Below are positions 764 to 52,144 of a stretch of 64,000 bases of DNA, piece after piece. Every line of letters begins with the position of its first letter. The first letter of the stretch is position 1. The stretch lies in NCBI GenBank assembly GCA_965218695.1, contig OZ244651.1, forward strand, positions 192,001-256,000, written 5' to 3'. This stretch comes from Nitrosopumilus sp. GTDB taxonomy: Archaea; Thermoproteota; Nitrososphaeria; Nitrososphaerales; Nitrosopumilaceae. The position numbers were made by a program, and so were the translations under genes. Under the pieces are notes generated by a model. It did not search any database. It was not told where the DNA came from and saw only the letters and a list, made by a program, of their open reading frames with translations.

Positions 764-924
764 ACAATTACCCCGCCCGACTCTGCGAGGTTGGTGAATA
801 CATGATAACCCTACCCACCCACCACATGTGGCGGGCTGACCCCTAATTACGCATGGTCGCAAAGACCTGGTTGTTGAATGGGGCTATCCAAGCTGCTGTG
901 TTACTGGACTCCGAGTCCTGATAG

Positions 925-2040
925 ATGTATGCAGCTACCGGCCTGTCACACAAAAAAAGGGAGGTGAAAGAAATAGAAAAGAGTATTGGAATTGACATAG
1001 GAAAGAGAAAATGTGTAACGTGTATAATGGATCACAAGGGGACAATCCTGGAAAAGTCATCGTACAACAACACGTCCCGGGAGGCATTGGAGTTTGCAGC
1101 ATATCTAAAGGCCACATACGGCCAGTGCAAAGCAGTCTGCGAATCCACCGGAAACCACTGGATTAAGACTGCAGACGCCTTTGAATCCGCCGGAGTCCCG
1201 CTGACGCTTGCCAATCCGTTCAAGGTCAAGGCAATCGCATGGGCCAAAATAAAAAACGACACCATAGACGCAAGAACGCTTGCCAACCTGCTGCGGGCAG
1301 ACCTGGTTCCAGGCTGCCACATAGGTTCGGCCGAATCCAGGGGAATTAAGCAGGTCCTCAGGTACCAGATGACCCTAGTGCAGGACCGGACAAAAGTGAT
1401 CAACTTTGTGCACACGCTGACAGACAAATACGACATAAATCCAAAAAATGCAGGGACCAGCGTCTGGAGACCAAAGGTCCTAAAGTACCTTGAAGGAGCA
1501 GACATGAAGAATTTCAGGGACAGGTTTGTTCTGGACGGCTGCATATCGCAGATACGGTACTACAACGACGAGATAAAAAAGACCGAAGACGAGATCAAGT
1601 GCTACGTCCGAGACGCCCATGCCCCGAAGATACTGCTGAGCATGACGGGAATGAACGTGTTTTCTGCTGCACTGCTGGCAGCAGAGATCGACACCATCGA
1701 AAGGTTTGAGAACCCAAAAAAGCTCGTATCCTGGGCAGGCATGTGCCCGACGCTTCACCAGTCAGGCGACACGCTATACCACGGCAGGATGAAAAAGGAC
1801 TCGAACCGGAAGGTCAACTGGATCATGATCCAGTGTGCGCTTGTGGCAGTGTTCCATGACGCAAGGATGAAGGAACACTACACGCGCCTCCTGAAGAGGC
1901 ACAAGCACCACATCGCCATAACGCACGTCGCAAACAAGATGCTGACGATCATCTGGCACATGCTGACAGAAGGCAACCTGTACGAGGACAGAAACGAGAA
2001 ACTGTACCGCGCCAAGATCAAGGAAGTTATGAAGGCGTAG
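925..2040 (+). CDS. IS110-family DEDD recombinase/transposase (true start possibly GTG at 964)
   Basis: GIDIGK, CESTG and KNDTIDA DEDD motifs; C-terminal SWAGMCPTLHQSG serine motif. Confidence 0.93.
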   Translation: MYAATGLSHKKREVKEIEKSIGIDIGKRKCVTCIMDHKGTILEKSSYNNTSREALEFAAYLKATYGQCKAVCESTGNHWIKTADAFESAGVPLTLANPFKVKAIAWAKIKNDTIDARTLANLLRADLVPGCHIGSAESRGIKQVLRYQMTLVQDRTKVINFVHTLTDKYDINPKNAGTSVWRPKVLKYLEGADMKNFRDRFVLDGCISQIRYYNDEIKKTEDEIKCYVRDAHAPKILLSMTGMNVFSAALLAAEIDTIERFENPKKLVSWAGMCPTLHQSGDTLYHGRMKKDSNRKVNWIMIQCALVAVFHDARMKEHYTRLLKRHKHHIAITHVANKMLTIIWHMLTEGNLYEDRNEKLYRAKIKEVMKA

Positions 2041-2235
2041 ACGCAGAACCGGCAATGTCCGTAGACGATGATGCCTGATCTAGCGGATGCTGTGCACAAA
2101 TTATGGGAACTATGGGATGTTTCTACATGAATGCTGGGGGGCCAGCCCCCCAGACCCCCCGGAAGGGATTATGCGTGTCACACCGCGGGGCAAAAAGCCG
2201 TATTTTCTGCCGGTCGGGCAGGATTCTGCTTGCAG

Positions 2236-3448
2236 GGGTGTGTCCTAGAGGCATATACCCCCGGATGACAAAAGATATGGATCGGCGGATCACGGCATCG
2301 CCTAATGACTACAAAGAAACGCGACCAACGACAGTACGATTTGGTTCAGCAGTACCTGTCGGGCCTCATGCTGAATACCGTGCTGGGAATAATCAAGAAT
2401 CTTGGGGATCCGTACGCCGTCAGGCCCGGCCTGGGCGGCATGACGGCATACCCGCCTGGCGCCATGGCAGCTGTCTGCATCATGCTTGAGGCACAGCGCA
2501 CGACCTACCGTAAGATGGTCGGCATCCTCCGAAACAATAGCGCCATGGCAGCCAAGATGGGCCTAGAGAAAATTCCCTCCAAGAGCACGATAGCACGCGC
2601 CTACGGCCTGATCCCGGAATGGTACCTGGCAGAGGCACACCGGATTGCCATCAGGGAGGTGGAGGCAGGCTCCCTGGCAGCAGACGGTACCGGATACTCG
2701 TACCTGCGGTTTGTCAGGTGGTTTGACGTCAGGACCGACAGTTTTCGTACCAGAAAGGGATGGGTCAAACTGCACGCAATCGTGGATATCCGCACCAGGG
2801 TGATAATCGACTGCATGGTGACTGACAGCGCAGTGGCAGACATAAACGGGCTGTACGCGATGCTCGGCAGGTTAGGCCGGGGCACCGGCGACTTTTGCCT
2901 GGATTCTGCATACCTGGCAAGGCTCATGTGCAACATGATATCTGCGATGGGAATGGTGCCCCGCATCAAGCCAAAATCCAACACCATACGCAACGCCAGG
3001 GGAAGCCAGTCGTGGCGCGAGATGGTAAGCCTGTACATGGATGAACGGGACAGGTTTGACTCGGAATACCACCAGCGCAGCATCATCGAGGCAGTCTTTG
3101 CCGCCCTCAAGAAGATGTACGGGGACAGCACCAGGTGCCGAAAACACGAGAACCGGACAAGGGAGACTGCGATCCGTGTCATGTGCTACAACATCGAGCT
3201 CGTGGCCAGATTGCAGGCAAAAGACGGCAGGCTCACACAGGATCAAATCGCGACACTTGCAGCATAGCTGGCGCGTTTCACCACGCGCTTCCTAGCGGAG
3301 CCTCCGCACCGTGTCTTGGATTTGGGGGATTTTATGGGTTGTGGAGGATCGATGGTGCGGCACTGTTGGCGTCGACGGGTTCTGGCACCAATCATGTCTT
3401 TGGCATTCTGGTACATGAAATGGCATTTTTTATTACTAGGACACACCC
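2236..3448 (+). mobile_element. 1213-bp IS5-like element, copy A
   Basis: TIR GGGTGTGTCCTAG/CTAGGACACACCC; 9-bp TSD TGCTTGCAG/TGCATGCAG (1 mismatch). Confidence 0.92.
2305..3267 (+). CDS. IS5/IS4-type DDE transposase (320 aa)
   Basis: AADGTG, KLH, LDSAY and YHQRSIIEAVF motifs. Confidence 0.92.
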   Translation: MTTKKRDQRQYDLVQQYLSGLMLNTVLGIIKNLGDPYAVRPGLGGMTAYPPGAMAAVCIMLEAQRTTYRKMVGILRNNSAMAAKMGLEKIPSKSTIARAYGLIPEWYLAEAHRIAIREVEAGSLAADGTGYSYLRFVRWFDVRTDSFRTRKGWVKLHAIVDIRTRVIIDCMVTDSAVADINGLYAMLGRLGRGTGDFCLDSAYLARLMCNMISAMGMVPRIKPKSNTIRNARGSQSWREMVSLYMDERDRFDSEYHQRSIIEAVFAALKKMYGDSTRCRKHENRTRETAIRVMCYNIELVARLQAKDGRLTQDQIATLAA

Positions 3449-3612
3449 TGCATGCAGGTAACGCTTAAGAAGTCAAAAAACATACCCAAGGTGACAAGTT
3501 GGACGCAAAACCTGGATAAGTCCGGGGATGGGTTAACATAGATGCGTAATTCTTCTGACCGCCTAGTCTAGTCCGATACGTTCAATGATCCCATGATCGC
3601 CCGCACGCGATA

Positions 3613-21417: not shown

Positions 21418-22364
21418 CTTGTTCAATTGGCTTGGCTTTGAATATAACAGTTGTTTGCGCGTTATGTCAAAGGCAGTGGTCAAGTCCAAACCCATGGAGT
21501 TGTGGGCATGGCTGTGGAGATGTTTATGGATGGAATGGTGCCAGATCATATCATTCTCTTGCCCCCGAACATCCAGAAGATGGTCTGGGATACCGATCTC
21601 TAAGATACCGCCTACCTCATGCTGATAGACATGGGAACAGGAAGGTGCAGATCTGATTGGATGAATACTGCACAGGTCCCAATGGGCTGTGGCGACTTGC
21701 TGTTTTTTACGAGGTTGGTGAATACATGATAACCCTACCCACCCACCACATGTGGCGGGCTGACCCCTAATTACGCATGGTCGCAAAGACCTGGTTGTTG
21801 AATGGGGCTATCCAAGCTGCTGTGTTACTGGACTCCGAGTCATGATAGATGTATGCAGCTACCGGCCTGTCACACAAAAAAAGGGAGGTGAAAGAAATAG
21901 AAAAGAGTATTGGAATTGACATAGGAAAGAGAAAATGTGTAACGTGTATAATGGATCACAAGGGGACAATCCTGGAAAAGTCATCGTACAACAACACGTC
22001 CCGGGAGGCATTGGAGTTTGCAGCATATCTAAAGGCCACATACGGCCAGTGCAAAGCAGTCTGCGAATCCACCGGAAACCACTGGATTAAGACTGCAGAC
22101 GCCTTTGAATCCGCCGGAGTCCCGCTGACGCTTGCCAATCCGTTCAAGGTCAAGGCAATCGCATGGGCCAAAATAAAAAACGACACCATAGACGCAAGAA
22201 CGCTTGCCAACCTGCTGCGGGCAGACCTGGTTCCAGGCTGCCACATAGGTTCGGCCGAATCCAGGGGAATTAAGCAGGTCCTCAGGTACCAGATGACCCT
22301 AGTGCAGGACCGGACAAAAGTGATCAACTTTGTGCACACGCTGACAGACAAATACGACATAAAT

Positions 22365-24015
22365 GTAACTGCATAGTTTTTTGATCAAATGTTGAACTCC
22401 ATGCCTACGCGCGTCTATGCAGTTTTTTGACGTGGAGCCAGGCCCTCGCGCAGGATCGTGCCAAGATCATCTCCCCTTGCCTTGCATGTCTGCTTGATGC
22501 TCATCAGCGTGGCAATGGCATCTGCGCCATCCTTGGATCTGCTCCCGTTGCTGTTCTTGCGCAGGATGACGCACGGCCTGATGGCCCGCTCTGCCCGGTT
22601 GTTGTGGTATTCGACGCCGTCTGTCTCCAGAAACGCAAACAGGTGATCCCTTTCCCGCACCAGCCTCTTGCGCATCCTGTTGCAGTGCTTGCAGTCGCGG
22701 TCCTTTTCGAGCCTGCCGATAAGTGACGCGATACGACGATCCAGCCTCTTCTTTGCGGCAAGCGCGTCTGCCCCTCCCGGAACGGCGCCGTCGATGTGCG
22801 AGTCCCACAGTATCGCGCGCAGCGTCCTTGCGTGACGCTTGTAGTCGTAGCCGGGATTCTTGTATTTCAGGGTGTCCTTGATGTCCCGGGCGTAATGAAG
22901 GTGGCACTTTTGGTGTTCGGATCCGATGACGTTCCACGCGGCCCACGAGTCAGACGTGACGCATCCCGGGTAGTCCTTGCCGAGCATCTTTTTTGGAACC
23001 TTCGAGTTCCTGTGGCGGTGCACCTCGTAGATTACGGCGTACCTGGCTACAGCCACCCACAGCCAGTAGTTCGTGCCGTCGACGCGCCAGATTGTCTCGT
23101 CCCCGTTTATCGCACGCGAGTTTCTTACCTCCTCCTTGATCTTCTCGTACAGCGGCCCGAGCTCCCGGGCCATCCTGCACACCATGCGGTTTATCGCAGA
23201 TTCCGTGATTCTTGCCGAGTACATCATCATGACAATATTGCATATTCTGAGGTCTGACATGCCGTGCAGCCGGAGGATGACCATCATTATCATAAAGTTG
23301 ATCCCGTACCTGGAGTTTGGCAGTGCCAGCGGAGTCCTGCCGGACACGGTCCTCTTGCAGTTCCTGCAACGCCTTCTCTTTAGTCACCTTGATGTGCTTT
23401 AGTTCCGTCTTGGCAGCCTCCCTTACCACCTTTGTGTACGTGGACACGCATTCTGAGAGGTCGGAGCTGCCGCAGTTGTCGCACGTGTGGGGATCTGCCG
23501 TCTCCTCTGCGTCTATTCTTTCAGGACGCGCAAGGCCCGTGCGTTTGTGGTCACTTGGCTTGCCCTTGCCCTTGCCCTTGCCCTTGCCCTTGCCCTTTGC
23601 GCGGCGCCGGGTACTGCCGGTCTTTTTGTCCGGTTTTGCGCCGATGCTCCTTGCAACGGCAGCCGATATGATGCCCTTTGCCTCCTGCAACTCTGCCGTG
23701 AGATCCTGGATCTGTTTGAGGGCGGCAGCGTAAAGATCAGCGAGTTTGGCCATCTGCCGGTCTTTTTCGGCCATCTGCCGGTCTTTTTCGGCCATCTGCT
23801 CTGCCATCACACCCACTTTTTCCTCCAGTTCTGCAATCCTTGACTCGGAATTATCATCAGACATATGCAAACCGTGGGCAACAATGATCTAAAAATTAGG
23901 ACGGAGAGAAAAACTCGATCAAGTGATCAAAAATAGTTTTAAAAAATTAGACAGACGCGGATTTTCTGATTGTAGATATGGAGTTCAACATTTGATCAAA
24001 AAACTACACAGATAC
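22365..24015 (-). mobile_element. Single-ORF IS66-like element with ~38-bp TIRs
   Basis: GTAACTGCATAGTTTTTTGATCAAATGTTGAACTCCAT and its inverse; 8-bp TSD ACATAAAT (22357-22364, 24016-24023). Confidence 0.92.
22415..23870 (-). pseudogene. IS66-family transposase, frameshifted near 23375
   Basis: Coiled coil and first CxxC in one frame; CRNC, GDETIW, QKCHLH and NNRAERAIR in another. Confidence 0.82.
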
Positions 24016-24623
24016 ACATAAATCCAAAAAATGCAGGGACCAGCGTCTGGAGACCAAAGGTCCTAAAGTACCTTGAAGGAGCAGACATGAAGAATTTCAG
24101 GGACAGGTTTGTTCTGGACGGCTGCATATCGCAGATACGGTACTACAACGACGAGATAAAAAAGACCGAAGACGAGATCAAGTGCTACGTCCGAGACGCC
24201 CATGCCCCGAAGATACTGCTGAGCATGACGGGAATGAACGTGTTTTCTGCTGCACTGCTGGCAGCAGAGATCGACACCATCGAAAGGTTTGAGAACCCAA
24301 AAAAGCTCGTATCCTGGGCAGGCATGTGCCCGACGCTTCACCAGTCAGGCGACACGCTATACCACGGCAGGATGAAAAAGGACTCGAACCGGAAGGTCAA
24401 CTGGATCATGATCCAGTGTGCGCTTGTGGCAGTGTTCCATGACGCAAGGATGAAGGAACACTACACGCGCCTCCTGAAGAGGCACAAGCACCACATCGCC
24501 ATAACGCACGTCGCAAACAAGATGCTGACGATCATCTGGCACATGCTGACAGAAGGCAACCTGTACGAGGACAGAAACGAGAAACTGTACCGCGCCAAGA
24601 TCAAGGAAGTTATGAAGGCGTAG

Positions 24624-24903
24624 ACGCAGAACCGGCAATGTCCGTAGACGATGATGCCTGATCTAGCGGATGCTGTGCACAAATTATGGGAATGGCGGGT
24701 GTTTTTACATGAATGCTGGGGGGCCAGCCCCCCAGACCCCCCGAAGGAGGATTATGCATGTCACGCCGCGGGACAAAAGCCGCATTTTTGCGGATCTGGT
24801 AGGATCCTGCATGCAGGTAACGCTTAAGAAGTCAAAAAACATACCCAAGGTGACAAGTTGGACGCAAAACCTGGATAAGTCCGGGGATGGGTTAACATAG
24901 ATG
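24624..24903 (+). ncRNA. Candidate IS110/IS1111 bridge (seek) RNA region, 3' non-coding end
   Basis: ~280-bp non-coding end with blocks conserved in 4 copies, GC hairpins and segments complementary to the insertion target; transcription not shown. Confidence 0.55.
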
Positions 24904-46116: not shown

Positions 46117-46980
46117 TCAAGGATTTGTTGGGATTGCGATGAATGGCGTTCCGCCTTCGCCCACGACGAGCGGCAGTTTGCCGTCCCATGCTTGCGTCTT
46201 CAACCATTCAAGGTAGTTCGGGTTCGCGGCCAGCGCGTCGTTGATGATGGATATGGCTTCTGCCTCTCCCTTGGCCTCTGCGATGTTCGCGTTTGCGAGT
46301 CCTATGGAGTTTGCCTCCCTCTGTTTTGCCTCGACTTCTATCCTGAGCAGGTCGTTTTCAGCCTTTAGTGCCTTTTGCTCCGCTTCCACCTTTGACTCGA
46401 TTGCCTGCGAGAATAATGATGAAAACTCAAAGTCGGTGATCGATATTACCTCTGTTACTATTCCAAACTGGTTCAGCCTCTCTCGGATGGATACTTCTAT
46501 ATCGGATTTGACCAGTGGACGTTTCGTAATCAGCTCTTCTGCGTTGTAGGTTGCCGTTACCTGCTTGACCGTCTCTTCTATTGCGGGCTGGATAACCCTG
46601 TTTTCATAGTCCAGTCCCAGATTCTGGTACAGGGTGTGTATTGCCTCCTTGTCCGGGTGGTAGTTTACAGTTACAGTAGTCTCTACTGTCTGCAGGTCCT
46701 TTGATGAGCCTCTGGTGTTCTTTTCATACTTTAACGTACGAACCTCGATGTTGATTACCTCGTCCTGAAATGGCACCACAAAATGCAGCCCCTCACCCAG
46801 CGGAGGCTTTGTCAAATCCACTGCGTTCCAATGTAAAAGGACGCCCCTGTGCCCTGCCTCTACAATCTTTACTGATGCAAATATTGCAAGGCCAACTACT
46901 ATGAGTGCTATGATGGCTATTGCAACTCCTTTTGCCGCATTCGCGTTTACGTTGGTTCCTGGTGATCTGTATCTTGACAA
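46117..46980 (-). CDS. Prohibitin / SPFH (band 7) family protein
   Basis: N-terminal TM helix, GHRGV, GLHFVVPF, SKDLQ, AIESKV and WDGKLP. Confidence 0.92.
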   Translation of the reverse strand: MSRYRSPGTNVNANAAKGVAIAIIALIVVGLAIFASVKIVEAGHRGVLLHWNAVDLTKPPLGEGLHFVVPFQDEVINIEVRTLKYEKNTRGSSKDLQTVETTVTVNYHPDKEAIHTLYQNLGLDYENRVIQPAIEETVKQVTATYNAEELITKRPLVKSDIEVSIRERLNQFGIVTEVISITDFEFSSLFSQAIESKVEAEQKALKAENDLLRIEVEAKQREANSIGLANANIAEAKGEAEAISIINDALAANPNYLEWLKTQAWDGKLPLVVGEGGTPFIAIPTNP

Positions 46981-47034
46981 TTGTACATGTATGATGCATC
47001 CTTCTATTATATTATCCTTGGTAATAGCCTGTTG

Positions 47035-48550
47035 AATACATGATAACCCTGCCCACCCACCATGTGTGACGGGCTGACCCCTGATTATGCATGGTCGTCA
47101 AGGCCTTCTTGTTGAATGGGGCTATCCGAGCTGCTGGGTTACTGGACTTCGAGTCCTGATAGATGCATGCAGCTTCCAGCCTGTCACACACGGAAAGGAG
47201 GTGAGAGAAATAGAAAAGAGTATTGGAATCGACATAGGAAAAAGGAAATGCGTGGCATGCGTGATGGAACACGACGGGGTGATCCTCGAAGAGTCATCGT
47301 ATGACAACACGGCCAAGGACGCGCTAGAGTTTGCCACGTCCGCAAAGGCCAGGTACGGCACATGCAGGGCAGTCTGCGAGTCCACCGGGAACCACTGGAT
47401 AAAGACTATCGATGCCTTTGAACACGTGGGAATCCCCATCGCCCTTGCAAACCCGTTCAAGATCAAGGCAATCGCGTCTGCCAGCATAAAAAACGACACC
47501 ATCGACGCAAGAACGCTTGCCCACCTGTTAAGATCCAACCTGATTCCCGCCTGCCATATTGGTTCGGCCGAATCTAGGGGGATAAAACAGATCCTCAGGT
47601 ACCAGATCCGCCTGGTGCAGGACAGGACGAGGGCGATAAATTTCGTGCACACGCTGACTGACAAGTATGACGTAAACCCGAAAGACGGCGGGAAAAACGT
47701 CTGGACCAAAAGGGTCCTGGCGTACCTTGAAGAAGCGGACGTGGAGAGTCCCCATGACAGGTTCGTCCTGGACCGCTGCATAGCCAAGATACGGCACTAC
47801 AATGACGAGATAAAAAAGACCGGGAACGAGATCAGGCGCTACGTCCGTGACGCCCACGGCCCAAAGATACTGATGAGCATTACCGGAATGGATGCGTTTT
47901 CTGCGGCGCTCCTGGCAGCAGAGATTGACACCATCGACAGGTTCGGGAACCCAAAAAAGTTCGTGTCCTGGGCGGGCATGTGCCCGACGCTCCACCAGTC
48001 AGGCGACACGTCATACCACGGCAGGATGAAAAAGGACTCGAACCGGAAGGTCAACTGGGTCATGGTCCAGTGCGCGCTGGTGGCAGTGAGACACGACCCG
48101 AGGATGAAGGAATACTACGTGCGCCTCATGAAGAGGCACAGGCACAACATCGCCATAACGCACGTCGCAAACAAGATGCTGACGATCATCTGGCACATGT
48201 TGACAGAAGACAACCTGTACGAGGACAGAAACGAAAAGCTGTACCGCGCCAAGATCAGACAAGTCATGAGGGCGTAATCCGGGAACCGGTGATGATAGGC
48301 GGTACCGGATCTAGCGGATGCTGTGCACGAATTATGGGAATAATGAAACATGCTTGCATGAATGCTGGGGGACGCCCCCCAGACCCCCCGGAAGGGATTA
48401 TGCATGTCACTCCGCGGGGCAACAAGCCACGTTTTCTGCGGATCTGGCAGGATTCTGCATGCAGGTAATGCTTAAGAAGACAAAAAACACACCCAAAATG
48501 ACAAGCTGGACGCAAAACCTGGATAAGTCCGGGGATGGGTTACATAGATG
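47035..48550 (+). mobile_element. IS110-family element, copy 3 (second variant)
   Basis: Ends AATACATGATAACCC ... GGGTTACATAGATG. Confidence 0.9.
47087..48277 (+). CDS. IS110-family DEDD recombinase (true start probably GTG near 47201)
   Basis: GIDIGK, CESTG, KNDTIDA and HQSG. Confidence 0.93.
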   Translation: MHGRQGLLVEWGYPSCWVTGLRVLIDACSFQPVTHGKEVREIEKSIGIDIGKRKCVACVMEHDGVILEESSYDNTAKDALEFATSAKARYGTCRAVCESTGNHWIKTIDAFEHVGIPIALANPFKIKAIASASIKNDTIDARTLAHLLRSNLIPACHIGSAESRGIKQILRYQIRLVQDRTRAINFVHTLTDKYDVNPKDGGKNVWTKRVLAYLEEADVESPHDRFVLDRCIAKIRHYNDEIKKTGNEIRRYVRDAHGPKILMSITGMDAFSAALLAAEIDTIDRFGNPKKFVSWAGMCPTLHQSGDTSYHGRMKKDSNRKVNWVMVQCALVAVRHDPRMKEYYVRLMKRHRHNIAITHVANKMLTIIWHMLTEDNLYEDRNEKLYRAKIRQVMRA

Positions 48551-48635
48551 CATAATTACGCCTAGCTGCAGTGAGTGATGTTGACTGTGTTCTAGACCGA
48601 AAAAGCTAAAGATCAGTGGATCCTAGAGTGTCGGA

Positions 48636-49610
48636 TTGAAGACGGACAACGAAAAATACATCAGGCGCGGCCAGGCATTAATTATTCGCGATGACCCGGA
48701 GAGATGCATCGAGGTCAAAAAGGCCAACCGTCACAAGGTCGGGGCTCCTTTCCAGTATGCAGACTCGTTCTTTGCCTCCCTGGCGGCAGTAAAATCGATG
48801 ATCCACATCCCCTACAGGAACCTGATGGGCATGGTCGTGGAGGTGCTCAGGGAGGAGCAAGTGCCCCACTATACCACCATCTTCAGAAGGATCCAGTCGC
48901 TGGATGTCCAGAGGAATGGCAGAATCATCACGGTCACCGGCAGCAAGGGCGCTGCAATCAGGCTTGCAGTGGATTCTACCGGCCTCAAGCAGCACAACAG
49001 GGGGGAGTGGATACGGCAAAAGTGGAAGGTAAGACGCGGATTTGTAAAGATGCACATTCTGGTTGACGTGGATACAAAAAAGATACTGGCAGTCCGTGTC
49101 ACCGATGATCGGACAGGGGATTCTCCCATGTTCGTTCCGCTGCTTGATGACGCTCTGGAGAACTGCGTGGGTCCGACATCAGAGTCCCGTCATGCTGGCA
49201 GTCCCGCAAAATGTTCTGCGTATGGCGATGGCGCTTACGCCTCTCGGGACAACCTAAAGGCATGCAGGGAGCGCAACGTGACCCCGCTCATCAAACTCAA
49301 GGTAAGCTCCACCCCGAAAGGAAAGGGCGCAGGCGACGTGTGGGGCATGGCAGTCCGGGACCAGTTTGGCGGCTCTGATCCCAATCGGGTGAAATGGCTG
49401 CCCGATGATGAAAAGAAAAGTAATCAGGAGGCGTGGAAGACTCGAGTCGGATACGGCAAAAGGTGGATTGTGGAGATTGTGTTTTCTGCATTCAAGAGAA
49501 TGTTCGGGGAACACCTGTACTCATTGAAATGGAAGAACATGATCCAGGAGGTCAATCTCAAGGTGGCCACCTACAACAAGCTGATAGACATGGGAGCAGG
49601 GGCAATGTAG
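48636..49610 (+). CDS. IS5-family (IS903-like) transposase
   Basis: PHYTTI, VDSTGLK, RRGFVKMH, GDGAYA and YGKRWIVEIVFSAFK. Confidence 0.92.
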   Translation: MKTDNEKYIRRGQALIIRDDPERCIEVKKANRHKVGAPFQYADSFFASLAAVKSMIHIPYRNLMGMVVEVLREEQVPHYTTIFRRIQSLDVQRNGRIITVTGSKGAAIRLAVDSTGLKQHNRGEWIRQKWKVRRGFVKMHILVDVDTKKILAVRVTDDRTGDSPMFVPLLDDALENCVGPTSESRHAGSPAKCSAYGDGAYASRDNLKACRERNVTPLIKLKVSSTPKGKGAGDVWGMAVRDQFGGSDPNRVKWLPDDEKKSNQEAWKTRVGYGKRWIVEIVFSAFKRMFGEHLYSLKWKNMIQEVNLKVATYNKLIDMGAGAM

Positions 49611-49661
49611 AGTCGGATAGGCGAATCCGGTACAAGTCTTGGGTGACTGAGTTGAATTATG

Positions 49662-51187
49662 CATCTATGTAACCCATCCCCGGACTTATCCAGGTTTTGC
49701 GTCCAGCTTGTCATTTTGGGTGTGTTTTTTGTCTTCTTAAGCGTTACCTGCATGCAGAATCCTGCCAGATCCGCAGAAAACGTGGCTTGTTGCCCCGCGG
49801 AGTGACATGCATAATCCCTTCCGGGGGGTCTGGGGGGCTGGCCCCCCAGCATTCATGTAGAAACATCCCACAATTCCCATAATTCGTGCACAGCATCCGC
49901 TAGGGCCGGCACTGCATTTACTGACACCACCGGTTCCGCGTCTACGCCTCCTTCATGACTTGTCTGATCTTGGCGCGGTACAGCTTTTCGTTTCTGTCCT
50001 CGTACAGGTTGTCTTCTGTCAACATGTGCCAGATGATCGTCAGCATCTTGTTTGCGACGTGCGTTATGGCGATGTTGTGCCTGTGCCTCTTCATGAGGCG
50101 CACGTAGTATTCCTTCATCCTCGGGTCGTGTCTCACTGCCACCAGCGCGCACTGGACCATGACCCAGTTGACCTTCCGGTTCGAGTCCTTTTTCATCCTG
50201 CCGTGGTATGACGTGTCGCCTGACTGGTGGAGCGTCGGGCACATGCCCGCCCAGGACACGAACTTTTTTGGGTTCCCGAACCTGTCGATGGTGTCAATCT
50301 CTGCTGCCAGGAGCGCCGCAGAAAACGCATCCATTCCGGTAATGCTCATCAGTATCTTTGGGCCGTGGGCGTCACGGACGTAGCGCCTGATCTCGTTCCC
50401 GGTCTTTTTTATCTCGTCATTGTAGTGCCGTATCTTGGCTATGCAGCGGTCCAGGACGAACCTGTCATGGGGACTCTCCACGTCCGCTTCTTCAAGGTAC
50501 GCCAGGACCCTTTTGGTCCAGACGTTTTTCCCGCCGTCTTTCGGGTTTACGTCATACTTGTCAGTCAGCGTGTGCACGAAATTTATCGCCCTCGTCCTGT
50601 CCTGCACCAGGCGGATCTGGTACCTGAGGATCTGTTTTATCCCCCTAGATTCGGCCGAACCAATATGGCAGGCGGGAATCAGGTTGGATCTTAACAGGTG
50701 GGCAAGCGTTCTTGCGTCGATGGTGTCGTTTTTTATGCTGGCAGACGCGATTGCCTTGATCTTGAACGGGTTTGCAAGGGCGATGGGGATTCCCACGTGT
50801 TCAAAGGCATCGATAGTCTTTATCCAGTGGTTCCCGGTGGACTCGCAGACTGCCCTGCATGTGCCGTACCTGGCCTTTGCGGACGTGGCAAACTCTAGCG
50901 CGTCCTTGGCCGTGTTGTCATACGATGACTCTTCGAGGATCACCCCGTCGTGTTCCATCACGCATGCCACGCATTTCCTTTTTCCTATGTCGATTCCAAT
51001 ACTCTTTTCTATTTCTCTCACCTCCTTTCCGTGTGTGACAGGCTGGAAGCTGCATGCATCTATCAGGACTCGAAGTCCAGTAACCCAGCAGCTCGGATAG
51101 CCCCATTCAACAAGAAGGCCTTGACGACCATGCATAATCAGGGGTCAGCCCGTCACACATGGTGGGTGGGCAGGGTTATCATGTATT
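49662..51187 (-). mobile_element. IS110-family element, copy 4 (inverted)
   Basis: Reverse complement of the copy 3 ends. Confidence 0.9.
49942..51135 (-). CDS. IS110-family DEDD recombinase
   Basis: Protein identical to 47087-48277 except the last residues. Confidence 0.93.
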   Translation of the reverse strand: MHGRQGLLVEWGYPSCWVTGLRVLIDACSFQPVTHGKEVREIEKSIGIDIGKRKCVACVMEHDGVILEESSYDNTAKDALEFATSAKARYGTCRAVCESTGNHWIKTIDAFEHVGIPIALANPFKIKAIASASIKNDTIDARTLAHLLRSNLIPACHIGSAESRGIKQILRYQIRLVQDRTRAINFVHTLTDKYDVNPKDGGKNVWTKRVLAYLEEADVESPHDRFVLDRCIAKIRHYNDEIKKTGNEIRRYVRDAHGPKILMSITGMDAFSAALLAAEIDTIDRFGNPKKFVSWAGMCPTLHQSGDTSYHGRMKKDSNRKVNWVMVQCALVAVRHDPRMKEYYVRLMKRHRHNIAITHVANKMLTIIWHMLTEDNLYEDRNEKLYRAKIRQVMKEA

Positions 51188-51432
51188 CAACAGGCTACTT
51201 GGTAACGGACGTGCAGTACGGACTCGCCCAATACATTTCTAGGGACGAATTTGCATGAATCATGCCTGTGTTTATAAGGGATCCGAGTGCGTACGGCGTG
51301 CATGCTCGCCGCCTCCAAAATCAGGCGTGTCCATTTGCATGATTCATGTCCATGCAGATCCCGTAGGCCGGATTTTGCAAATGTGGAGAACGCCCGGGCA
51401 TATCAACAGATTTATCTCATGACTGCATACGG

Positions 51433-52029: not shown

Positions 52030-52144
52030 TGCCGGGGGCGGGTTTCGAACCCGCGACCTCCAGATTATGAGTATTGCCTTAGTTGGAGAAACCCTGGAGT
52101 TTGCCAATCAAGCTGGCACTCTAACCAGGCTGAGCTACCCCGGC
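52030..52144 (-). tRNA. tRNA-Met(CAT), elongator-type, with a 40-nt intron at position 30/31 (52073-52112)
   Basis: GCCGGGG acceptor; spliced stem CCAGA/TCTGG with loop CTCATAA; BHB central helix TGCC/GGCA with bulges AGC and ATA. Confidence 0.9.

What the first reader, a model, noticed from the sequence alone, without database searches (positions are those of the whole stretch)
47017..51205. Archaeal IS110 that inserts into the TIRs of IS5 elements, occupying both ends of one element
Seen: removing the two IS110 copies (47035-48550 and 49662-51187) restores perfect TIRs TAGCCTGTTGCATAATT around the transposase at 48636-49610, flanked by the TSD CTTGGTAA. Each IS110 sits exactly 10 bp inside a TIR, in the same orientation relative to it, at TG|CATAATT, with no TSD of its own. 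Known: IS110 recombinases are RNA-guided (bridge/seekRNA), and the bacterial IS1111-group elements IS4321/IS5075 target Tn21-family TIRs. Inference: this is an RNA-programmed IS-of-ISs in an archaeon. It uses abundant IS ends as safe harbours and may immobilise them, or it may build a new composite with ~1.2-kb inverted arms.
Basis: partly seen in the sequence, partly recalled or inferred. Interest (0 to 1): 0.9.

Follow-up and report, generated by a model that had tools for sequence, protein, structure and literature searches.

The report
Guided IS110 copies splitting IS5 ends
Two copies of an RNA-guided IS110/IS1111-type insertion sequence sit at the same position inside both terminal repeats of one IS5 element in an ammonia-oxidising archaeon, and the element's own non-coding RNA spells out that position, so this is a clean natural example of a known mechanism, not a new one.

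Summary
Two IS110-family elements (47035-48550 +, 49662-51187 -) each sit 10 bp inside a 17-bp terminal repeat of one IS5-family element, in the same orientation relative to the repeat. Removing them restores perfect repeats and an 8-bp duplication.

All 4 genomic copies of this subfamily sit at that same position in IS5 ends. Other subfamilies (about 80% identical) sit at other fixed sites, mostly in other insertion sequences.

The left non-coding end encodes a ~130-nt RNA: a long closing stem around two stem-loops with internal loops. One loop carries the left flank on its 3' side and the complement of the right flank on its 5' side, overlapping at a TG core. These segments change with the flanks across subfamilies and across elements from 16 of 151 sampled genomes of the class. 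The second loop carries the element's own right-end sequence and changes with it.

This is bridge/seekRNA-guided targeting. The element has IS1111-type subterminal repeats and guide order, but its RNA lies upstream of the transposase gene.

Expression, circles and activity were not shown. Immobilisation of IS5 and composite formation remain untested.

No unoccupied exact target remains. The six intact-looking empty IS5 ends all differ at the same guide-matched position.

The parts
47017..47024 (.). Left copy of the 8-bp target-site duplication made by the IS5 element
   Evidence: Identical to 51198-51205.
47025..47034 (+). Outer 10 bp of the left IS5 terminal inverted repeat, cut off from the rest by the IS110 insertion
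   Evidence: Together with 48551-48557 it forms the 17-bp repeat. Intact versions are found at empty IS5 ends elsewhere.
47035..48550 (+). IS110-family element, copy A1 (1516 bp)
   Evidence: Ends defined by alignment of 9 genomic copies.
47060..47194 (+). Bridge/seekRNA-like non-coding RNA gene in the left end of A1: a closing stem around a target-binding stem-loop and a donor-binding stem-loop
   Evidence: Covariance model hit at 155.4 bits. RNAalifold. MFE -63.3 kcal/mol, z -2.81. 23 of 34 pairs have compensatory changes in 26 sequences.
47083..47091 (+). Right-target guide: reverse complement of the TG core plus the first 7 bases of the right flank (IS5 repeat positions 9-17; 8 of 9 Watson-Crick plus one G-T)
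   Evidence: Co-varies with the right flank in 14 elements.
47108..47114 (+). Left-target guide: same sense as IS5 repeat positions 4-10 including the TG core (6 of 7 identical, the seventh a U-G wobble; copies A3/A4 match 7 of 7)
   Evidence: Co-varies with the left flank (reading).
47159..47165 (+). Left-donor guide: identical to the last 7 bases of the element's own right end (48544-48550)
   Evidence: Changes together with the right end in diverged elements.
47201..48277 (+). DEDD recombinase/transposase gene (358 aa from a GTG behind a GGAGG; an upstream in-frame ATG at 47087 would give 396 aa but lies inside the RNA)
48278..48550 (+). Right non-coding end (273 bp), strongly conserved between subfamilies apart from the patch 48273-48366. 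Holds the right subterminal inverted repeat. Function otherwise unknown
   Evidence: 66 predicted pairs, 0 compensatory.
48551..49661 (+). Body of the IS5-family element, with the inner 7 bp of each terminal repeat (48551-48557, 49655-49661) and an intact 324-aa transposase ORF (48636-49610)
   Evidence: 96% identical to two uninterrupted genomic copies.
49662..51187 (-). IS110-family element, copy A2 (1526 bp), with its RNA gene at 51028-51162 (-) and its recombinase ORF ending at 49942
51188..51197 (-). Outer 10 bp of the right IS5 terminal inverted repeat
51198..51205 (.). Right copy of the 8-bp IS5 target-site duplication
797..3544 (+). Related IS110 element B1 (about 82% identical), 10 bp inside the left terminal repeat of a different 1.18-kb IS5-like element. 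Its right end is interrupted by a nested 1211-bp insertion sequence
21721..24903 (+). Related IS110 element B2, at the same site in another copy of that IS5-like element. Its recombinase gene is interrupted by a nested 1.65-kb insertion sequence

Best explanation
This is an RNA-guided insertion sequence of the IS110 family in the broad sense. It has IS1111-type ends, and its guide RNA is written for the terminal repeat of an IS5-family element.

Proposed mechanism:
1. The left non-coding end is transcribed into a ~130-nt RNA. A long stem closes two stem-loops, each with a large internal loop.
2. In the first loop, the 3' side repeats IS5 repeat positions 4-10, so it would pair with the bottom strand. 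The 5' side is complementary to positions 9-17, so it would pair with the top strand. The two overlap at a TG core.
3. In the second loop, the 3' side repeats the last 7 bases of the element itself.
4. The DEDD recombinase bound to this RNA brings the joined ends of an excised circular copy to the IS5 repeat and exchanges strands at TG.
5. The element therefore lands 10 bp inside the repeat, always with its left end next to the outer piece, and makes no duplication.
6. Both ends of one IS5 carry the site, so both were hit.

Shown here: the anatomy, the site specificity, the RNA structure with compensatory changes, and the co-variation of guide segments with flanks and with the element's own right end.

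Inferred from the family (PMC11208160, PMC11187229): transcription, RNA-protein complex, circular intermediate and strand exchange at the core.
For: Site specificity:
- 4 of 4 copies of subfamily A share the same left and right flanks at the same orientation.
- The two copies of subfamily B share another site, and three insertions of subfamily C share a third.

Guide segments:
- The alignment of 9 copies shows two variable segments in an otherwise conserved left end. They equal the left flank and the complement of the right flank for subfamilies A, B and D, and for C with a one-base shift.
- The same holds for a 47%-identical element in the same genome, with left guide 6 of 6, right guide 6 contiguous pairs, and donor guide changing with the right end.
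- It also holds for a 39%-identical element of another family-level group, with left 11 of 11, right 8 of 9 and donor 7 of 7.

Permutation tests:
- Left guide versus left flank, 18 elements, six positions outside the core: own pairs average 4.39 against 2.35 for other pairs. 0 of 100000 shuffles reach the observed sum.
- Right guide versus right flank, 14 elements, seven positions: 4.93 against 2.60, 0 of 100000.

Further loci:
- In 19 further loci from other genomes I read (by eye) at least 6 contiguous identities including the core in 16.
- The donor guide located the true right end, next to the subterminal repeat, in 12 of 21 loci. It occurs in three sequence variants that match the three right-end variants.

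RNA structure:
- 92.1% of cells are paired, against 30-45% when partners are slid.
- 23 of 34 pairs show compensatory change.
- 0 of 500 shuffles reach any of the five measures.

Protein: Pfam and NCBIfam assign the IS110 family RNA-guided transposase above cut-off.
Against: - No RNA run holds the region and only assembled contigs were available. No circle junction or empty-site joint was seen. Transcription, excision and activity are therefore unshown.
- The right-donor guide could not be assigned consistently across the family.
- Subfamily C fits only with a one-base register shift (2.5 of 7 in fixed register). Two elements from other genomes have right flanks that do not fit their guide (2.5 and 1.5 of 7). 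Three left flanks fit poorly (2, 2 and 3 of 6).
- Subfamilies B and D have one mismatch next to the core.
- The elements compared are related, so the permutation counts overstate independence. The 26-sequence alignment was fitted to the model's structure.
- Copies A1 and A4 differ by about 5%, as do the IS5 parts next to them. That pair could be one insertion duplicated together with its IS5.
Confidence: 0.85

Rival explanations
1. The recombinase protein itself recognises the IS5 terminal repeat, or a DNA structure it forms. The left-end segments resemble the flanks for another reason.
For: No expression or binding data exist for this element. The targets of subfamilies A, B and F are similar IS5-type repeats, which a protein could also read.
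Against: Elements with 74-79% identical recombinases use unrelated sites (subfamilies C and D), and the two RNA segments change exactly with them. The same code holds down to 39% protein identity. The segments lie 48-80 nt inside the element, in loops of a structure kept by compensatory changes. They are therefore not copied flank.
Confidence: 0.04
2. The copies spread passively. One or two old insertions into an IS5 end were multiplied by transposition or recombination of the IS5 carrying them, not by repeated targeted insertion.
For: A1 and A4 are 95% identical, and the adjoining IS5 parts are 95% identical too. B1 and B2 lie in IS5-like copies that are over 99% identical.
Against: A1 and A2 occupy opposite ends of one IS5, so they are at least two events. 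A3 lies in an IS5 relative only 86% identical. An IS5 whose 17-bp repeats are split 10 + 7 should be a poor substrate for its own transposase (inference). The outer flanks of all copies differ. At least three independent events are needed for subfamily A. Passive spread also does not explain guide-flank co-variation in other genomes.
Confidence: 0.08
3. The inverted pair is an assembly artefact of a repeat-rich genome.
For: The genome holds dozens of near-identical repeats. The arms are 100% identical over 1248 bp. Only one contig of a public run bridges a junction with 31 or more bases on both sides (record 25 of run X6, 46900-47209).
Against: The two copies differ in a ~95-nt patch and in length (1516 against 1526 bp). 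The 8-bp duplication and both half-repeats are exactly in place. The same junction type occurs at three other loci. The contig holding the window is 2.46 Mb.
Confidence: 0.02

Closest known systems
[quoted passage not shown]
   Same: A DEDD-transposase element with subterminal inverted repeats inserts at one fixed position and orientation inside the terminal repeat of another mobile element, without a duplication. The recombinase here aligns with the IS5075 transposase over residues 8-341 (20% identity, E 6e-18).
   Different: The host is an archaeon. The target is the 17-bp repeat of an IS5-family insertion sequence, not the 38-bp repeat of a Tn3-family transposon. The guide RNA lies upstream of the transposase gene, not downstream. 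Protein identity is only about 20%.
IS621 and its bridge RNA (IS110 group; PMC11208160, passages read)
   Same: The non-coding RNA lies in the left end upstream of the recombinase gene. It has two internal loops, one for the target and one for the donor, each with two guide segments that meet at a dinucleotide core. The natural targets are multi-copy sequences.
   Different: The order of the guides within the loop is the reverse. Here the top-strand complement comes first, which PMC11187229 describes as the IS1111 order. The subterminal repeats are long (10-15 bp) against 2-3 bp. The core is TG. A long closing stem makes a three-way junction. The PDB match to the IS621 transposase has E 2.5e-12, and its best-scoring stretch covers residues 218-300.
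seekRNA elements ISEc11, ISKpn4, ISPst6, ISPa11 (IS1111 family; PMC11187229, passages read)
   Same: Subterminal repeats. The terminal extensions total 10 bp, which equals 7 left and 3 right if the core is counted on the left. [quoted passage not shown] Natural reprogramming occurs between close relatives. The preferred targets are repeated sequences.
   Different: In those elements the RNA is encoded downstream of the transposase gene. The paper lists exceptions: ISMtsp17 has its non-coding region upstream, and ISHvo10 and ISAcp5 have long non-coding regions on both sides. The present elements resemble those exceptions. I could not see the paper's supplementary tree or tables.

Membership tests
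IS110 family in the broad sense (DEDD recombinase insertion sequences) | Recombinase with DEDD_Tnp_IS110 and Transposase_20 domains | tested here: met
   Pfam 83.7 and 87.3 bits. NCBIfam NF033542 at 232 bits against a cut-off of 140.
IS110 family in the broad sense (DEDD recombinase insertion sequences) | No terminal inverted repeats at the very tips, no target duplication beyond the core, and one fixed site and orientation | tested here: met
   4 of 4 subfamily A copies are at the same site and orientation.
IS110 family in the broad sense (DEDD recombinase insertion sequences) | Element-encoded RNA whose loops carry guides for both sides of the target | tested here: met
IS110 family in the broad sense (DEDD recombinase insertion sequences) | Second loop with guides for both element ends (donor) | tested here: inconclusive
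   The left-donor guide equals the right end and changes with it. The right-donor guide could not be assigned consistently.
IS110 family in the broad sense (DEDD recombinase insertion sequences) | Circular intermediate with abutted ends | not testable with these tools
   Only assembled contigs were on hand and no joint was reported.
IS1111 group | Subterminal inverted repeats of about 7-17 bp with short asymmetric extensions | tested here: met
   There is a 10-bp repeat starting at base 6 from either tip (9 of 10), and a 15-bp perfect repeat in a relative. The extensions are 5 + 5 with the core on the right, which equals 7 + 3 with the core on the left.
IS1111 group | Guide RNA encoded downstream of the transposase gene | tested here: not met
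   The guide-bearing RNA is upstream in all 18 genomic hits and in all 26 loci from relatives. A conserved 273-bp downstream region exists, but it shows no target-linked variation and no compensatory pairs.
IS1111 group | Top-strand complement precedes bottom-strand match in the RNA | tested here: met
   The criterion is taken from PMC11187229 (passage read).
IS1111 group | Transposase clusters with IS1111-group transposases in a tree | not tested
   There is only a pairwise alignment with the IS5075 transposase and a PDB match to IS621. I had no set of reference proteins for both groups, so no tree was built.
IS5 family (the target element) | DDE transposase of the IS5 family, short terminal inverted repeats, target duplication | tested here: met
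   NCBIfam NF033579 at 200 bits against a cut-off of 140. 17-bp repeats and an 8-bp duplication.

The most novel reading that the evidence does not exclude
An arms race between two insertion-sequence families inside one archaeal genome. The guided IS110 lineage acts as a hyperparasite that finds and splits the terminal repeats of IS5-type elements, disabling them, and its guides track IS5 repeat variants.

Supporting pattern:
- Every end with the cognate sequence is already occupied (4 occupied, 0 exact empty sites).
- The 6 intact-looking empty ends all carry the same single change at repeat position 5, opposite the left guide. That is what escape from guidance would look like.
- Sister subfamilies and relatives in other genomes are tuned to other IS5-type repeat variants, at the same 10-bp offset.
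Probability: 0.2. Interest if true: 0.7.

Novelty: new member of a known kind. Interest (0 to 1): 0.45.

Why it matters
It extends RNA-guided IS110/IS1111 recombination to ammonia-oxidising archaea with sequence-level evidence.

It also supplies a natural retargeting series. At least eight guide/target pairs occur in one genome, and some two dozen more in relatives. All share one RNA scaffold, which could inform guide rules (tolerated mismatches, wobble, register) for bridge-recombinase engineering.

It shows that in a repeat-rich archaeal genome the multi-copy sequences chosen by such elements are mostly other insertion sequences. This parallels the Tn21-repeat, attC and REP targeting known in bacteria.

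The combination of IS1111-type ends and guide order with an upstream RNA bears on how the RNA gene moved between element ends during the family's evolution.

The pattern of occupied cognate ends against empty mismatched ends gives a directly testable case of one transposon family constraining another.

Tried and rejected
- Rfam: only two tRNAs in the window. No curated family covers the left-end RNA.
- Sequencing runs: no RNA holder listed. All 23 rows are assembled contigs.
- Laying four runs: no joints, so no circle junction and no empty site. Only one contig bridges a junction with 31 or more bases on both sides.
- Right non-coding end as a second structured RNA: 66 predicted pairs, none compensatory. 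Left as unexplained conservation.
- Right-donor guide: I tried pairing the 5' side of the second loop with the first five bases of the left end, and with the subterminal repeat. Neither held across diverged elements (reading), so I make no claim.
- Model R1 on a haloarchaeal relative (34.5% protein identity) and on IS5075: no significant hit (best E 0.1 to 0.6).
- Target of subfamily E: a ~70-nt repeat beside a HATPase_c gene, not shown to be an insertion sequence. I therefore do not count it as an IS end.
- Subfamily D sits 28 bp beyond the end of a multi-copy repeat, not inside it.
- Donor for the diverged patch 48273-48366: none in the genome.
- A tree to place the recombinase in the IS110 or IS1111 group was not built, for lack of reference proteins.
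- Literature: four searches listed no paper describing IS110-family elements in IS5 terminal repeats or in ammonia-oxidising archaea. This covers the held library only. Supplementary tables of PMC11208160 and PMC11187229, which list predicted RNAs and targets for ISfinder elements, were not seen and may include related archaeal elements.

Full report
**What is there**

- an 8-bp direct repeat (47017-47024 and 51198-51205);
- the outer 10 bp of an IS5 terminal repeat on each side (47025-47034, 51188-51197);
- two IS110-family elements in inverted orientation (47035-48550 on the + strand, 49662-51187 on the - strand);
- between them the IS5 body, with the inner 7 bp of each repeat and an intact 324-aa transposase ORF (48636-49610).

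Taking the two elements out restores a perfect 17-bp inverted repeat.

The repeat finder gives arms of 1248 nt at 100% and 191 nt at 98%, separated by a diverged patch just after the stop codon.

Pfam and NCBIfam place the outer ORFs in the IS110 family of RNA-guided transposases and the inner ORF in the IS5 family, all above the curated cut-offs.

The left flank and the element both end in TG. The elements make no other duplication.

The genome (2.63 Mb, 9 contigs, 52.8% G+C) encodes an archaeal AmoA. The nearest named relative of the recombinase is in a Nitrosopumilus MAG (66% identity). The host is therefore an ammonia-oxidising archaeon.

**Census in the genome**

BLAST of one element against the genome finds four copies of the same subfamily (A; 92-100% identical). 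One of them has an internal deletion. All four lie at the same position and orientation in IS5-type ends:
- two in the window's IS5;
- one in the right end of an 86%-identical IS5 relative;
- one in the left end of a truncated IS5.

Further subfamilies, about 80% identical in DNA and 74-79% in protein, each have their own site.
- Subfamily B has two copies, both in the window at 797-3544 and 21721-24903. They lie 10 bp inside the left repeat of a different 1.18-kb IS5-like element with a DDE_Tnp_1 transposase.
- Subfamily C has three insertions. They lie inside the transposase gene of a 1.5-kb DDE_Tnp_4 insertion sequence.
- Subfamily D has one copy, 28 bp beyond a multi-copy repeat.
- Subfamily E has two truncated copies, 10 bp inside a short repeat of unknown nature.
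- A left-end fragment (F) abuts the outer 10 bp of yet another IS5-type repeat variant.

At least 10 of the 17 insertions with a readable left flank are therefore in other insertion sequences. Several copies are themselves broken by nested insertion sequences.

**The RNA**

An alignment of nine copies shows a well-conserved left non-coding end with two short variable segments.

RNAalifold and single-sequence folding give a long closing stem around two stem-loops, each with a large internal loop.

A covariance model built from eight copies gave these results:
- It finds the RNA upstream of the recombinase gene in 18 places in this genome.
- It finds it in elements of relatives down to 39% protein identity.
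- It finds it in 16 of 151 genomes sampled across the class.

On 26 sequences from other genomes:
- 92.1% of cells pair, against 30-45% with slid partners.
- 23 of 34 pairs show compensatory change.
- The one 'helix' without any compensatory change is the one RNAalifold drew through the second internal loop. It is therefore probably not a helix.
- That alignment was fitted to the model, which favours the structure. The slid controls still argue strongly for it.

**The guides**

In the first internal loop, the 3' side (47108-47114 in copy A1) repeats IS5 repeat positions 4-10 including the TG. The 5' side (47083-47091) is the reverse complement of positions 9-17.

The two segments change with the flanks:
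- Subfamilies A and B differ by one base in the right guide, and by the complementary base in the right flank.
- Subfamily D differs at five positions, all complementary.
- Subfamilies C, E and F carry their own left flanks.
- Copies A3/A4 match the IS5 repeat 7 of 7. A1/A2 have one U-G wobble.

A 47%-identical element elsewhere in the genome, and elements from other genomes, follow the same code.

Permutation tests:
- Left guide: 18 elements, own 4.39 of 6 against 2.35 for other pairs, 0 of 100000 shuffles as high.
- Right guide: 14 elements, own 4.93 of 7 against 2.60, 0 of 100000.

Misfits are real and are listed under evidence against:
- Subfamily C needs a one-base shift.
- Two foreign elements have non-matching right flanks.
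- Three left flanks fit poorly.

For 19 further loci I read the agreement by eye (16 with six or more contiguous identities including the core).

In the second loop, the 3' side (47159-47165) equals the last seven bases of the element. It occurs in three variants that match three right-end variants. I could not assign the partner guide on its 5' side.

**Which kind of IS110**

The element has a 10-bp subterminal inverted repeat starting at base 6 from each tip. A relative has a perfect 15-bp one.

With the core counted on the left, the extensions are 7 and 3 bp. PMC11187229 gives this geometry for the IS1111 family (passage read).

The RNA is upstream of the gene, however. Both papers give this as the IS110-group position.

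PMC11187229 notes exceptions: ISMtsp17 with an upstream non-coding region, and ISHvo10 and ISAcp5 with long regions on both sides. The present elements have 166 bp upstream and 273 bp downstream and look like those exceptions.

The recombinase aligns end to end with the IS5075 transposase at 20% identity. The best-scoring stretch of its match to the IS621 transposase in the PDB is C-terminal (residues 218-300). The best plasmid hits are haloarchaeal. No tree was built, so the group assignment rests on element anatomy.

**Targets left over**

No unoccupied exact copy of the 14-nt site exists in the genome. Fifteen sites differ by one base:
- Six are IS5 ends. All six carry the same change at repeat position 5, opposite the left guide.
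- Eight lie about 70 bp inside a 1432-bp rve-type insertion sequence and differ at the outermost guide position. None of these is occupied.
- One is another IS5-type variant.

The pattern is also what escape from guidance would look like. With few and related copies, though, it may be mere lineage history.

**What is not shown**

- There is no expression, circle or activity evidence.
- Whether a split repeat immobilises the IS5, and whether the 4.2-kb unit can move as a composite, is untested.
- The 100% identity of the 1248-bp arms points to a very recent second insertion from the first copy, or to gene conversion between the arms.
- The unique ~95-nt patch in A1 has no donor in the genome.
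- The strong conservation of the right non-coding end has no explanation yet.

**Verdict**

In kind, this is a new archaeal member of the known RNA-guided IS110/IS1111 elements, and its behaviour parallels IS4321/IS5075. Its value is as a rich natural retargeting series, and as a possible case of one insertion-sequence family policing another.

Noticed in passing
window 2237-3447, and G000:C1:2048084-2049315: The same 1211-bp insertion sequence (about 30 genomic copies) is nested at the same palindromic site in the right end of two IS110 copies from different subfamilies (B1 and C1). The duplication is 11 bp and the nested copies are 99.7% identical. This points to either a strong site preference of that element or exchange of right ends between subfamilies.
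   Followed up: partly
window 48278-48550 (and the right ends of all copies): The 273-bp right non-coding end is more conserved between subfamilies than the coding region. It includes a G/C-rich hairpin and a segment resembling subfamily A's right guide that does not vary with the target. No compensatory pairs were found and its function is unknown.
   Followed up: partly
window 48273-48366: Copy A1 carries a ~95-nt patch just after its stop codon. It differs from A2, A3 and A4 (about 76% identity, with indels) although the preceding 1248 bp are identical to A2. No donor sequence exists in the genome.
   Followed up: yes
whole genome G000: The genome is extremely rich in insertion sequences. 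These include about 30 copies of the 1211-bp element, about 20 of a 1.65-kb element, at least 35 near-identical copies of another repeat of 1074 bp or more, 8 copies of an rve-type element, and several IS5-type families. Many are nested in one another.
   Followed up: partly
window 52030-52144 (- strand): A tRNA match 115 nt long against a 71-position model. It probably contains an intron, as is common in archaea.
   Followed up: no
runs X1 and X2, loose ends at window 47113 and 47143: Contigs of public runs continue from the conserved left-end RNA into a version with different guide segments that I did not find among the copies examined in G000. Further subfamilies therefore exist in those samples.
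   Followed up: no
L039 and L054 (genome G179): In another genus of the family, two copies of a related element lie 10 bp inside the end of a repeat whose outer 10 bp resemble the IS5-type repeat variant of fragment F. The left guide matches 7 of 7 and the right guide fits only moderately.
   Followed up: partly
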